Origin: Octopus vulgaris
Taxonomy: Eukaryota
NCBI GenBank assembly: GCA_951406725.2
Contig: OX597824.1
Coordinates: 70,556,001-70,620,000, forward strand
Reading direction: 5' to 3'
Length of the DNA stretch: 64,000 nucleotides
Positions within the stretch are counted from its first letter, which is position 1, and the number at the start of each line of letters is the position of its first letter. Under the pieces are notes generated by a model that was not told where the DNA came from, made no database searches, and saw only the letters and a list, made by a program, of their open reading frames with translations. Below are positions 23,945-50,244 of the stretch, one piece after another. A program made the position numbers and the translations under genes.

Positions 23945-24915
23945 GTCTAGAGGTTAAATTTTGTTCTGGTCTTTAACAGAAGGGCAAGTTACTAAGATGT
24001 AATCATAGCTATTCTGAACCCTTTTGTTAATTTATTGCTTTGGAAATACACTGCGTTTGTTTCAATTAATTTTGAAAATAATGAAGTATTACATAAAATA
24101 ATAACTTGGTTTATTATTAAGTTGGTGTTTTGCACATAAATGAACATGGAATTTTGATGGAAAGTTTTAATTTATTTTAACCCTTTAGTTACCATGCTTC
24201 TGTTGAAACACTACCTTTGCTTTGATTAAGTTTGAAAATTAACTATTATGAATTTAGTAAAAAATAACTCATAATTAAGCTGGTGTTTGAAGTATAAATT
24301 AACATGGAATTTTGACAGAAGGTTTTAATTTATCACTTTAAAGCGAGGAAGTTTAAATCATTTGGAATCATGAAGGGCTGTCTCAGGTGGGCTAGTATCA
24401 AAAGGGCCAGTGATGTGCTTTTGCTAATAGAGATCCTCACTAAAGTTGGATCTATTGTTGTTACACCTCACTCACCTGTCTCCCTCACTGCAGTTAATCC
24501 CACATAGTTTGAGTCAAATGAGTTGTCCAGTTTGATCAACAGATCTATTCTTTGCAGACAACCTTAAGATAGGATCAACTAGTGTGAGTCCTTTTGAATA
24601 ATAGATTACATAACCTATCAGATGGTTTTCCTGCATGGCTTCCATCTTCTCATTTATATGGTTTGGGTCAAATCAGTGCAGTGCTAGTAGAATAAGAAGA
24701 TATTTGACTTGATCAGGGTACTGCTTGCTGGAATTGAACCCAAATTTGAAAATGAACCGTGTGATGTGAGAGTGAATAACCATAACCCTCTTAGGACACC
24801 CAGGCCAATTGATCAGCCCCAATGATACAAGCTGAAAGGACTTTGAGGCAGATCTATTGCCCCAATGAAAGAAATGTTTTGAAGTGTAATAGTCAATCAG
24901 AGATCATCTTTCAGT

Positions 24916-25162
24916 CGCTCTAATGTAAAATTAATGGTTGTTGCCACCTCAATGTGGTTGTTCCATATGGAACAATGTTATGACTCTTTTTAACCTCAAG
25001 AGGGCACCTCCTCCAGCTGATTGACTACAGAATATCTATGTCCATTCTATTGCAAACAATGGAGCAAACAGCTCCCATCCAGCAGTGAAAGGACCAGTAG
25101 ACCAGAACTGTTTCAGAACCCTTCCTCAGTACTGATTACTGAGGTGGTAACAACCATTACTT
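24916..25162 (-). mobile_element. Hammerhead-bearing insert with inverted ends (Penelope- or retrozyme-like)
   Basis: 7-bp TSD tttcagt (24909-24915, 25163-25169). 20-bp inverted repeat at 24932-24951 and 25140-25159 (19/20 match). It interrupts a MITE that is continuous at about 28220. Confidence 0.75.
25095..25134 (-). ncRNA. Minimal type I hammerhead ribozyme (intact core, GUC site)
   Basis: Minus strand: cagua-CUGAGGA-ag(gguu)cu-GAAA-c(aguucug)g-UC|uacug. Perfect 5-bp stem I. Confidence 0.75.
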
Positions 25163-25503
25163 TTTCAGTAGAGACCAATAGAATAAGCAAAAGAGACCAA
25201 TAGAATAAGTCCTGGGGTCGATTTGTTCGACTAAAGGCAGTGCTCCAGCATGGCCCCAGTCAAATGACTGAAACAAGTAAAAGATAGTTTTACATAGTAA
25301 TTTAGTAGTTTTAGGTACTTTATCTTTCGTTTTGTACATGCACCCATCAGTTTCAATCTCTACAGAAAAAAGATTTTGGTCTTTTTTGGCTACACATAAC
25401 AAAATACAGTGTATCTGAAAAGGGTCAACCACTCAGCTATGTGATACATGTGCATGTGTGAGCACATACACATGTGAACACCTTGTAATTCCATCCATAT
25501 TAT

Positions 25504-28134: not shown

Positions 28135-28981
28135 TTAACCCTCTTGGGGCACTTCAAGCTGAAAGGACTTTGAGGCTGTGAAACAAACGTTTTGAAGTGT
28201 AATAGCCAATCAAAGATCGTCTTTCAGTAGATATAATATATAACTATATATTTGAAATACTAATAAGGTAGTCTTAAGTACTCTATCCTTTGTTTTCTAC
28301 CTGCACCCATCAATTTCAATCACATCAGAAAAAACATGTTGCGTCTTTATTGGCAACACATACCACCAAAACACTGCGTCTCAAAAGGTTAACACTTTAG
28401 CATTCAGATAACTCTGTCAGATGTAATGCTTATTATTATTCACATTGTTTTCAGTTAATCATGCATTATCTAATAACTTTGAGATTTTGATAAAATGATG
28501 CTTTTGGATGAGGACAGCTGTATAAAAAAAGTGCCAATCTCTAAATGTAGAGGGCACCTGTGGATGAGGTGGTGAAGCAAGATCTTCGAACATTGGGCCT
28601 CACAGAGGTGATAAGTGACCAAGACTTTTGGCAATATACTGTGTTTGAAAAACTCGTTAAGCCAAGTGAAATCGTAGTTGTGGCCGATGCCGATGTCACA
28701 TAACTGGTACCATGCCACCCATTACACTCTTGGAGTGGTTGGCATTAGGAAGGGCATCCAGCTATAGAAACCATGCCAAATCAGATTGAAACCTCTATAG
28801 TCAAACTGTCTAACCCATGTCAGCATGAAAAGTAGATGCTAAATGATGGTGATGATGATGATTGTTTATTTTTAGAATGACATTGTTGGGTAGATGTGAA
28901 AGGCCAGATCCAGTCAGTATGAACATAAAACAAGTGGAATATTTGAGCTGGATATGGCCGGTTTAAATACTAAAGAGTTAA
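28135..28981. mobile_element. Two abutting TTAA MITEs sharing one TTAA; the second carries an RTE fragment
   Basis: TTAA at 28135, 28389 and 28978. RTE ORF end and (GAT)n tail at about 28497-28860. Confidence 0.75.
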
Positions 28982-30324
28982 TTATTTAGTCAGTTAATAT
29001 GAGAGATGACCTTATCCAGTTGTTGGCCCTATAGTGTTTGTGTGGTGAGCAAGATTGAGCCTCCTCAGGTGGATGTGAATTAGTGGCAGGTGAGGAGGGT
29101 AGACATGGGGCTGTAATAGTGGAGTTGGAATGGCTGAGAGGGGTGGCTACCAACAGTATTGCTGGTGGGGATGGGGACAGTCTACCCTGGGTGACACTTT
29201 TATGAGGGAGACACTTTTGGGTCTGCTGTATAAACCTGTTTAGGCTTGGGGGCCCAGAATTGAAGGAATGGTAGAAAAGGGCTCCTTCCAAATGGATGAT
29301 ACATTCACTAGCCTCTTCCCTGGTGGCCACAGTGACGATAGTCAAAGGTTGCTTTATCACTGTTGTTGTTGGACCCTTATCAAGCGGATCACTGATAATC
29401 TTCCCATCACCATCCCAGATTTTATTTCATATTTATTCATTCTTGTGGTCATTGTGTATTAAGGACTAGAATATGGGATGTGTTTTTCCTTTCATAAACA
29501 GCGAAAGGTGTATTTGAAGGAGGTTAGGCTGTTATTTCTAGCAAGCTAAGCAATCATGTGGAGAAGTTTCTTAGTTAACTTGTGGTGGTAGCAATGGTTG
29601 TTGTTGTCTGTTTAGCTTCAGGTCAATCCTGATTGAGCAAACCTATGGAATTAGGGTAGCTTCAGGCATTGGGTATCTATCTGTCATAAGATATCTATAT
29701 ATTCTTCAATGCTAATTTTAAATATTTCCTTTGAAGATAGTGGAATGAGGAGATTAACAAGAATTTGACTGCTGTTTCTAACAGGTCAAACGACCATGTA
29801 GAAGTGCCTCTTGTTGGTGAGTTGTGGTATTGGTTATGGTAGTGGGTGGGGTTTGAGTGGGGAGTGGGTGGTGGAGGAGCAAAATCATGACTGTTTTTGT
29901 GATAGTTGCTTTGATGGTGATGATTGGTAGCAGGGTTGGGGTGCCAAGGGTGATGGTGGTGAAGTTATTGATGAATATTATTATCATTATTATTATTATT
30001 ATTAGTAGTAGTAGTAGTAGTAACAACTGTTATGTCAGTGTTATGATTGTCCAGTAACTTAACTGTGATGGCCAATTGTCAAATACGGGGTTGGCTTGTA
30101 AACATTTTGGTTTTGACATCTGTTTGTAGTTGTAGGTGTCAATAGTTGTTGTGGTTGTAGTACCAGTGTGTTAGTTAACTTATAAAATACAAGTGGTGGT
30201 GGCCTACAGGTGAGAGGGGTGACAGTGCTAAATTTGTTTGTTGACCACAAACACTCAGAGGGGAGGGGAGTTTGCTGCATAGTGGTGGTGGTTGTTGTTG
30301 TTCTGGTCCCTCGGTCAGCTTCAA

Positions 30325-31198
30325 TCTCAAGTACCTTGAGAGAAAAGTTGAACCTAAGAAGCATCAGATGTGGTGTGCAAGAGAGACGACTGCGCTGGTA
30401 TGGTTATGTGGTGAGAATGGATGAGGATAGCTGTGTGAAAAAGTGCCACACCCTAGCGGTTGAGGGAACCTGTGGAAGAGGTAGATCCAGGAAGACCTGG
30501 GATGAGGTGGTGAAATATATCCTTCGAACATTAGGCCTCACCGAGGCAATGACTAGTGACTGGGACCTTTGGAAATATGCTGTGTGTGAGAAGACCCGGC
30601 AAGCCAAGTGAAACCATAACCCATGGCCTATGCCAGGGGTGTAACCAGCCCACTTATGCATACCTTTCCTTCATTGGACATTAAACTCTGCTTGCGAAGA
30701 CCTGTTGAAGCAAGTGAAATCGAAATCGAAATCAAATTCGATGACTGGCATCTGTGCTAGTGGAGCGCTAAGAACACCATGTGAGCATGATCGTTGCAAG
30801 AGCAGCTGACTGGCTTCCATGCCAGTGGCACATAAAAAGTACCATTTGAGCATGATCGTTACCAGTGTCGCCTTACTGGCACTTGTGCCAGTGGCATGTG
30901 AAAAAACATTCGAGCAAGGTCGTTGCCAGTGCTGCTGGACTGGTTCCTGTGCAGGTGGCATGTAAAAAACACCATTTGAGCGTGGCTGTTGCCAGTACCA
31001 CCTGACTGGCCCTTGTGCTGGTGGCACGTAAAAGCACCCACTACACTCTTGGAGTGGTTGGCATTAGGAAGGGCATCCAGCTGTAGAAACTCTGCCAGAT
31101 CAGATTGGAGCCTGGTGCAGCCATCTGGTTCACCAATCCTCAGTCAAATCGTCCAACCCATGCCAGCATGAAAAGCAGACGTTAAACGATGATGATGA
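30325..31198 (+). mobile_element. RTE-clade LINE 3' end with (GAT)n tail
   Basis: STLREKLNLRSIRCGVQERRLRWYGYVVRMDEDSCVKKC...GRGRSRKTWDEVV...EKTRQAK*, then a repeat-containing UTR and taaacgatgatgatg. Confidence 0.92.
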
Positions 31199-49029: not shown

Positions 49030-49500
49030 TTCACAGCGACAATGCTCTTCTCAGTACTTGTGACGTATCCGTTGAAACAATCTTTTGCACTTCTTGCATG
49101 GATGGTAAGCCAGGGATCATCCTCAAAAAATTTTCAGTCCCATTTTTGGTCATTCCAAGTGCTCCTGTAACTGTCTTGAGATGCCACATTTGTTTCAGTT
49201 TCAATCAGCAAATCTTCATATTTTCTGAGCTTATCAATTTTTTTTGCTGAGATGTTATGATCACCAGGTATGCTCATGTCAATCAGTAAACAGATTTTAT
49301 TGTTTTCACCTTTCTCAACAATATCTAGTTTATTAGCTTTGATGGTCCAGTCTGTATGTGCTGGTAACTCCCAAAGAAATTTTACATTTTCTCCCTCAGT
49401 TACAACAACCTCAGGGTGGTGCTTGTACCAATTGTCAGCAGTTTTGATTTTATAATGCCGACATATTATCCAGTGTAGATATTGGCCAACTCTGACTTGT
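49030..49500 (-). pseudogene. R4/Dong-clade LINE C-terminal relic
   Basis: RVGQYLHWIICRHYKIKTADNWYKHHPE...NKLDIV...CLLIDMSIPGDHNISAKKIDKLRKYEDLLIE..MWHLKTV.GALG (restriction-like endonuclease). Starts next to (TTA)n. Confidence 0.85.
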
Positions 49501-49501
49501 C

Positions 49502-49546
<45 letters not shown>

Positions 49547-50244
49547 CGTCAGTAGTAGTAAAATTAAGGTTAGTGTACTCTCACCCCCCCATAAAAAAAC
49601 ACAAGATAATGTATCTTTGTGTGTGTATATGTCTGTATGTGAACATATGTGTATGTGTGTTTGTAATGAATTTTTAGAGCTTACTCAGAAATATATTAAT
49701 ATTCTTCATATTTCTCTAGAGAATTACAGAGCAGTTCCACAGTAATAATTGTTTTCTGACAGATTGATACAAGACCCTGCCACTTGCTGTTATCAGTAAA
49801 ATCACATTGGCTCTTTGGACTTTAATTCTTTGTCTTCCACATTGTTACATTGTTCTGTTGTCATTGCCAATTTACATTTCATCTCCAAGTGCTGCCTTAT
49901 GCACCCACCACCACTGCCACCACCACCACCACCACCGGCTGTCCAGATAATGGAACATCATCGGTTAGGGTGTAATGGGTATTGTCACTGTTGTTGTTGT
50001 TTAGGCCTAGTTCAACTCTGATCTGAGTACTACATGATGAAAGTTATTCTGGTTGGCACCATGTTGGTCATGTATTAATCAGAGTGGTGTCCTCATCTTT
50101 GGTTGTTGTTTCCACTACATTTCAGCTGTGTATTAATTTATCAACTCGTGTGACTTTGGGGTTATGGTATTCAGCTCATGATCACAAGATCATGAGTTCA
50201 CTTCCCAGCAATGTTCTTTGTCCTTGAGGAAGACATTTTATTCC

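What the first reader, a model, noticed from the sequence alone, without database searches (positions are those of the whole stretch)
24909..25169. TSD-flanked ~250 bp mobile insert with inverted ends and an intact GUC hammerhead
Seen: a 7-bp TSD (tttcagt), a 19/20 inverted repeat near both ends, and a complete minus-strand hammerhead starting 5 nt inside the right repeat. The empty site (ctttcagtaga) is visible in a sister MITE at about 28221. Established: Penelope insertions often carry an inverted terminal segment and a hammerhead. Inference: this is a discrete non-autonomous, self-cleaving element that looks like a MITE but probably moves via RNA. It is the best-delimited candidate new element in the window.
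Basis: partly seen in the sequence, partly recalled or inferred. Interest (0 to 1): 0.75.

Follow-up and report, generated by a model that had tools for sequence, protein, structure and literature searches.

The report
Decayed hammerhead retrozyme copy, Penelope-type insertion
This is an aged copy of a repeated, roughly 350-base non-coding element whose family carries a predicted self-cutting (hammerhead) RNA motif and was likely pasted in by Penelope-type retrotransposon enzymes; this copy's motif is damaged, and the element belongs to a known kind.

Summary
The 7-bp direct repeat, inverted ends and hammerhead core are at the stated places, but three parts of the reading change. (1) It is not a discrete 250-bp element. 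It is a truncated, 82.5%-identical copy of a dispersed family with a circularly closed 353-nt unit and no ORF seen. (2) The inverted end is not a TIR. Of 73 loci, 24 are head-to-head pairs with short arms of 33-256 nt. Of 112 3' ends, 75 fall in two zones about 60 nt apart, often into (TA)n: the Penelope 'tail' footprint. (3) The hammerhead is not intact: the core is complete, but stem II lost 5 nt and stem III 1 nt. The TSD is ambiguous because the same 10 nt are also element sequence. A younger sister family keeps stem I through five double changes and forms a nine-hammerhead tandem array. Verdict: a decayed member of the non-LTR retrozyme / non-autonomous Penelope class. No partner enzyme was identified and no cleavage tested. 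The scan noted similar elements before on other DNA.

The parts
24783..24915 (+). Left part of the host repeat (about 300-bp dispersed repeat with TTAACCC...GGGTTAA ends; piggyBac-type MITE label is recalled)
   Evidence: aligns with 25 host copies up to the insertion point; GGTTAA-like 3' end in 17 of 25, TAACCC 5' end in 6 of 25
24909..24915 (+). Left 7-bp direct repeat (host sequence)
24918..25134 (-). Main arm of the insertion: unit positions 96-312 of the 353-nt family unit, 82.5% identical to the family consensus
25093..25136 (-). Minimal type I hammerhead: core intact, stem I 7 bp, stem II eroded by a 5-nt deletion, stem III by a 1-nt deletion; predicted cut 25100/25099
25140..25173 (+). 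Short inverted arm: unit positions 280-312, 97% identical to the consensus, joined head-to-head to the main arm
25163..25172 (+). TTTCAGTAGA: right direct repeat plus 3 nt; identical both to the host empty site and to the family unit, so TSD versus element sequence cannot be told
25172..25287 (+). Later or separate insertion of a very abundant SINE-like repeat (label recalled), with about 25 bp of host repeat missing here
   Evidence: I1; summed contig depth 5e5-1e7 in run X3 against about 8 in the unique flank
25288..25427 (+). Right part of the host repeat
   Evidence: (D3)

Best explanation
The stretch is an old, truncated copy of a non-coding 353-nt repeat unit that carries a minimal type I hammerhead motif and was likely inserted by the reverse transcriptase and GIY-YIG endonuclease of an autonomous Penelope-like element acting in trans. 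Shown: the family, its closed unit, two preferred 3' ends about 60 nt apart, head-to-head arms of variable length, (TA)n landing sites, and compensatory changes in the hammerhead between two sister families. Inferred: the template was an uncleaved longer-than-unit or circular RNA; the enzyme cut both target strands and copied the RNA from each end, giving two arms; in this copy the short arm may have been primed by 10 nt of complementarity between target and RNA, which would make the 7-bp TSD real. Predicted: this copy's ribozyme no longer cuts.
For: Family of at least 73 distinct loci, 70-90% (median 84%) identical to a 353-nt consensus; 19 loci longer than one unit, running across the unit junction. 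3' ends: 35 at unit 293-307 and 40 at 350-366, 75 of 112 segments against 9% if uniform; 5' ends 10 of 112. In the 25 loci fetched after the zones were set, 19 of 41 (counted). 24 of 73 loci are head-to-head pairs, 12 of them with one end in each zone; 38 of 75 zone ends are followed by (TA)3+ against 10% of random flank positions. This matches the described PLE layout: partial tandems, inverted 5'-truncated copy, tail at one end only, microsatellite bias (PMC8557442), and two RT start sites bounding the tail (PMC11167929). Sister family, 357 nt, 60% identical and colinear: 36 of 41 ends in two zones, 14 of 27 loci inverted, five of six stem I pairs changed on both sides while pairing is kept, tandem array of nine hammerhead units 352 nt apart, 98.6-99.7% alike. 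The genome holds young RT + GIY-YIG ORFs of 781 aa. 59 segments span the hammerhead uncut, as expected if unprocessed RNA is the template.
Against: No autonomous partner found: neither unit resembles the DNA of 30 GIY-YIG loci (30 fetched of 150 scored of 6136 candidates), and only 1 of 73 family loci has a PLE-protein match, about 860 bp away. No two-hammerhead array of this family itself: longest copy 1.57 units, exact dimer pattern 0 matches (weak test for an old family). The tail is about 60 nt (about 50 in the sister family), longer than the 30-40 bp described. Both ends of the window copy map to unit 312, outside the two usual zones, and its site is not a (TA)n run. In vitro a PLE started RT without homology to the target, against the homology-priming step. 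5' ends are not enriched at the cleavage site (3 of 112 against 3.5 expected). The first two family searches used queries ending near the end zones, which inflates the 75 of 112.
Confidence: 0.85

Rival explanations
1. The copies are 5'-truncated pseudo-LTRs of an extinct autonomous Penelope-like element rather than a self-standing non-autonomous unit.
For: Truncated PLEs leave many lone minimal hammerheads (PMC4209133); end structure would be the same; no multimer of this family was found.
Against: Upstream of the hammerhead the copies return to the unit's own tail instead of an ORF end: 19 of 73 loci exceed one unit; no shared non-family upstream sequence among the segments of 48 loci; the colinear sister family forms pure non-coding tandem arrays.
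Confidence: 0.08
2. A DNA transposon-type MITE with terminal inverted repeats and a 7-bp TSD that happens to contain a hammerhead-like string.
For: Inverted ends and a 7-bp direct repeat at this locus.
Against: 49 of 73 loci have no adjacent inverted arm and the arms present vary from 33 to 256 nt; no fixed TSD in 48 loci; 5' ends scattered, 3' ends fixed.
Confidence: 0.02
3. The main arm is a PLE-type insertion but the short inverted arm and the apparent TSD arose afterwards or during repair by a template switch or fold-back, and the right tttcagt is element sequence (no TSD).
For: Both arms end at the same unit position 312 and the right repeat matches the family consensus over 33 of 34 nt; the SINE-like insertion removed the host sequence that would decide it.
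Against: Head-to-head arms are common in both families; a 10-nt match of target to an end zone occurs at 8 of 63,690 window positions (post hoc), so identity of target and element at the junction needs explaining either way; five T at the junction fit element TT plus host TTT (weak).
Confidence: 0.05

Closest known systems
Animal non-LTR retrozymes (Cervera & de la Pena 2020, PMC7229834, passages read; Li, Clavereau & Pollet 2026, bioRxiv 10.64898/2026.07.22.740005, parts 1-3 of 5 read)
   Same: Non-coding unit of about 350 nt, type I hammerhead once per unit, dispersed monomer-sized copies, co-occurrence with PLEs; the sister family has tandem arrays with a hammerhead in each unit.
   Different: For the window's own family no array with two ribozymes was found; the ribozyme is of the minimal, palindromic-stem-III kind; no transcript or circle shown; those papers do not sample cephalopods in the parts read.
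Penelope-like element pLTRs with minimal hammerheads (PMC4209133, parts 1-2 of 4 read; PMC8557442, passages read)
   Same: Minimal type I hammerhead with palindromic helix III and an extra base after A9; partial tandems, inverted 5'-truncated arm, tail at one end, microsatellite targets.
   Different: No ORF and no linked RT/EN; tail about 60 nt instead of 30-40; an extra base also sits before G12 (A-U, A.A or C.A flanking stem II).
PAc Poseidon element in vitro (Frangieh et al. 2024, PMC11167929, parts 1-2 of 4 read)
   Same: Two RT start sites that define the tail, cutting and extension of both target strands, AT-rich targets, uncleaved RNA as template.
   Different: PAc is autonomous and starts RT without target homology; the window copy has a 10-nt target-element identity at one junction.
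Non-autonomous Chlamys PLEs such as MRC1 (PMC8557442, passage read)
   Same: Non-autonomous PLE with pLTRs and head-to-tail copies.
   Different: Those share 3' sequence with a known autonomous family; none was found here.

Membership tests
Non-LTR retrozyme | Non-coding unit of a few hundred nt with a type I hammerhead | tested here: met
   353-nt unit, core intact in 23 of 59 hammerhead-spanning segments; no ORF of 120 aa over the locus
Non-LTR retrozyme | Head-to-tail organisation of the unit | tested here: met
   19 of 73 loci longer than one unit, up to 1.57 units
Non-LTR retrozyme | At least two consecutive units each with a complete hammerhead (criterion for an active element in Li et al. 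2026) | tested here: inconclusive
   Not found for the window's family (low sensitivity); met by the 60%-identical sister family, nine units; not met by the window copy itself
Non-LTR retrozyme | Self-cleavage and circular RNA | not testable with these tools
   Only assembled contigs were available; no assay possible
Penelope-like (non-autonomous) | Two preferred 3' ends giving an optional tail, often at one end only | tested here: met
   75 of 112 ends in two zones; 12 of 24 inverted pairs with one end in each; sister family 36 of 41 and 13 of 14
Penelope-like (non-autonomous) | Inverted 5'-truncated copy adjacent to the main copy, variable length | tested here: met
   24 of 73 loci, short arm 33-256 nt
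Penelope-like (non-autonomous) | Microsatellite / AT-rich insertion bias | tested here: met
   38 of 75 zone ends followed by (TA)3+ against 10% of random flank
Penelope-like (non-autonomous) | Sequence shared with the pLTR of an autonomous PLE | tested here: inconclusive
   No match in 30 GIY-YIG loci, a small sample dominated by one family
Penelope-like (autonomous) | RT plus GIY-YIG ORF | tested here: not met
   No ORF at the locus; tblastn of a PLE protein finds nothing near it
MITE (DNA transposon derivative) | Fixed TIRs and fixed-length TSD in all copies | tested here: not met
Hammerhead ribozyme, minimal type I | Conserved core with three helices kept by covariation | tested here: met
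   At family level: stem I pairs A-U,U-A,G-C,A-U,C-G,C-G (14 copies) versus G-C,C-G,A-U,C-G,A-U,C-G (8 copies); own-copy pairing 0.80/0.79, cross-family 0.50/0.33. The window copy keeps the core but only 2-bp stems II and III

The most novel reading that the evidence does not exclude
Octopus-type retrozymes are a lineage of ORF-less PLE parasites whose genomic copies record the PLE reaction directly: one uncleaved multimeric or circular RNA is copied from both ends of a double-strand cut, starting at a different one of two fixed sites on each side, and a conserved 50-nt hairpin region behind the hammerhead is the enzyme's handle. The window copy would then be a rare case in which 10 nt of target-RNA complementarity shifted the start site, showing that PLE enzymes can also use homology-assisted (twin-priming-like) initiation.
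Probability: 0.3. Interest if true: 0.55.

Novelty: new member of a known kind. Interest (0 to 1): 0.3.

Why it matters
The locus itself is an inert fossil. The family matters modestly: the link between animal retrozymes and Penelope enzymes has rested on shared ribozymes, co-occurrence and pLTR similarity, and the insertion footprints counted here (two start sites, tail on one arm, TA targets) are an independent kind of support. The near-identical nine-unit array of the sister family is a better object for cleavage, circle and PLE-template tests than the window copy. It also shows how PLE derivatives get misfiled as MITEs from a single copy.

Tried and rejected
Rfam, gathering threshold over the window and E<=10 over 24800-25300: no hammerhead family. 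Folding the hammerhead region alone: z 0.37, -1.38, 0.60, the minimum-energy folds are not the hammerhead; the whole insert folds at z -5.6, but the long closing helix is simply the inverted arms. Exact 33-nt hammerhead pattern: 2 matches in the genome, so no young expansion with that exact motif. Dimer pattern for the window's family: 0 matches. Search for an autonomous partner through PF01541 loci: no DNA similarity; the 315-bp gap in L025 shows no open frame and looks like another repeat. Sequencing runs: no RNA holder listed. Contigs of four runs guessed to be RNA gave only short pieces on a family copy and no joint that goes back; contigs cannot show expression or its absence. Contigs of organisms D and E showed no listed piece across the element junctions, so the TSD question stayed open. 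Enrichment of 5' ends at the cleavage site: none. Lunse et al. (PMC5785218) is not held; I know it only from a reference list. One search used coordinates covering only part of the intended L016 copy; the missing half was searched. Duplicated loci dropped before counting: 17 of 90 for the window's family and 3 of 30 for the sister family. Repbase and Dfam were not available and no supplements were read, so both families may already be catalogued under another name.

Full report
Observation. The sequence shows tttcagt at 24909-24915 and 25163-25169, a 19/20 inverted repeat that extends to 34 nt at 88%, and on the minus strand the core of a type I hammerhead with the predicted cut between 25100 and 25099. 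Rfam does not detect it. Contigs of two other runs reproduce the left junction and, in one run, the element body without differences. The genome is 2.8 Gb in 227 contigs; I take it for an octopus from recalled repeat motifs and from earlier notes of this scan, not from a test.

The family. The insert has 41 matches in the genome from 40 of 149 candidates scored, at 72-82% identity apart from itself; a second query gave 897 candidates. Three searches fetched 90 loci, 73 distinct. Their consensus is a 353-nt unit whose end runs into its own start. 19 of 73 loci are longer than one unit, the longest 1.57 units; identity to the consensus is 70-90%, median 84%. The window copy consists of unit 96-312 on the minus strand (82.5%) and unit 280-312 on the plus strand (97%). 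No shared non-family sequence lies upstream of the segments of 48 loci, and a PLE protein matches only 1 of 73 loci, about 860 bp from the element.

Ends. Read in the hammerhead sense, 75 of 112 segments end in two zones (unit 293-307: 35; 350-366: 40), against 9% expected if uniform; only 10 of 112 begin there. The zones were set on the first 48 loci, whose queries ended near them. The 25 later loci, found with a query across the unit junction, give 19 of 41 (counted). 24 of 73 loci are head-to-head pairs with short arms of 33-256 nt, and 12 of the 24 have one end in each zone. 38 of 75 zone ends are followed by (TA)3 or more, against 10% of random flank positions. No fixed TSD appears in 48 loci. 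PLE insertions are described with partial tandems, an inverted 5'-truncated copy, a 30-40-bp tail at one end only and microsatellite bias (PMC8557442, passages). In vitro a PLE protein cut and extended both target strands, started at two internal sites that bound the tail, and used uncleaved RNA (PMC11167929, parts 1-2). The family fits this except that its tail is about 60 nt.

The ribozyme. At family level it has stem I of 6-7 bp, the core, stem II GGGU/ACCC with a flanking pair or mismatch, and a palindromic stem III; 23 of 59 hammerhead-spanning segments keep all core bases, the window copy among them. The window copy has lost 5 nt of stem II and 1 nt of stem III; its active fold scores -0.8 kcal/mol against -13.6 and -14.0 for a good copy and the consensus (secondary-structure energies only). 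A single minimal PLE hammerhead showed no cleavage in vitro and dimers only little (PMC4209133, parts 1-2). In the 2026 preprint 1 of 9 frog dimers cleaved. So this copy is predicted inactive.

A sister family. Contigs from runs guessed to be RNA matched only a 40-nt part of a family copy and ran on into other sequence. That sequence has 845 exact matches in the genome and belongs to a 357-nt unit, colinear with the first at 60% identity. In 27 distinct loci of 30 fetched, 36 of 41 segments end in two zones about 50 nt apart, 14 loci are head-to-head pairs and 13 of these have one end in each zone (the search motif lies near one zone). Between the families five of six stem I pairs are changed on both sides and stem III stays palindromic or nearly so with other letters (14 and 8 copies), which indicates selection on the fold in the lineage. 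The sister family has head-to-tail arrays (26 pattern matches); one holds nine hammerheads 352 nt apart, neighbours 98.6-99.7% identical. This meets the published definition of a non-LTR retrozyme (bioRxiv 10.64898/2026.07.22.740005). The same test found no array of the window's own, older family.

The TSD. The host is a dispersed repeat whose empty site reads ...CTTTCAGTAGATATAA... (25 copies aligned; exact 10-mer in 12 of 25). The same 10 nt are unit 302-311 of the element, and a SINE-like insertion removed about 25 bp of host behind them. The right repeat can therefore be host or element. A 10-nt match to an end zone occurs at 8 of 63,690 window positions (post hoc), so I favour, as inference, priming of the short arm by target-RNA pairing, as in L1 twin priming (recalled). 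That would put the arm's true start in the usual zone and make the 7-bp TSD real. Against it, the PLE studied in vitro started without homology and most family ends show none.

Partner. The genome has many GIY-YIG matches and a young RT + EN family with 781-aa frames, but neither unit resembles 30 such loci at the DNA level. The partner is unidentified; mobilisation by a PLE enzyme is inferred from the footprint.

Novelty. Animal non-LTR retrozymes and their PLE origin are in print (PMC7229834, passages; the 2026 preprint; review PMC6765202, passages). Five searches listed no paper on cephalopod retrozymes; Repbase, Dfam and supplements were not seen. A sequence look-up in this scan's notes found nothing, but word look-ups list several similar octopus elements on other DNA, one with a 356-nt unit in this genome. 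My reading was formed before those look-ups; they are unchecked notes and add no evidence. Verdict: a real but decayed copy, new member of a known kind, interest 0.3.

Noticed in passing
L148-L189; array at G000:C2:14086537-14089369, another at C25:8521218-8522640: Younger sister family (357-nt unit, 84-98% to its consensus, 845 exact matches of a 25-nt motif) with the same architecture and true tandem arrays; all nine hammerheads of the C2 array read CCGAUGA (U4 to C).
   Followed up: yes
family unit 191-243; window about 24985-25035, minus strand: The best-conserved stretch between the two families (75-84% over about 50 nt) is a hairpin-rich region 60 nt behind the hammerhead; candidate protein-binding site.
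   Followed up: partly
L145:1485-1827: One copy starts exactly at the hammerhead cut (unit 135) and ends at unit 127-134, like a cut-to-cut monomer; single case, 3' end ambiguous.
   Followed up: partly
L008, L012, L016, L023, L058-L065 and others: A subfamily (20 of 59 hammerhead segments) has C at core position 4 (17 of 20) and an A.A mismatch flanking stem II.
   Followed up: partly
L094, L097, L099, L106, L110, L113: Young RT + GIY-YIG PLE family (open frames up to 781 aa); its 3' region holds a hammerhead-like motif with U3-A8 in place of C3-G8, about 70 nt before (TA)n.
   Followed up: partly
G000:C23:42842846-42843712: A 50-nt tandem array made of the hammerhead part of the sister unit only.
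   Followed up: no
L185:2050-2500: The C2 array is followed by sequence that looks like a decayed helicase gene of Helitron type (recalled motif, not tested).
   Followed up: no
window 24783-25427 and 28137-28392: Host repeat has TTAA-flanked short CCCT...AGGG ends, like a piggyBac-type MITE (label recalled).
   Followed up: partly
window 49134-49580 and 30186-30611: Short open frames that look like decayed LINE-type ORF ends (recalled motifs).
   Followed up: no
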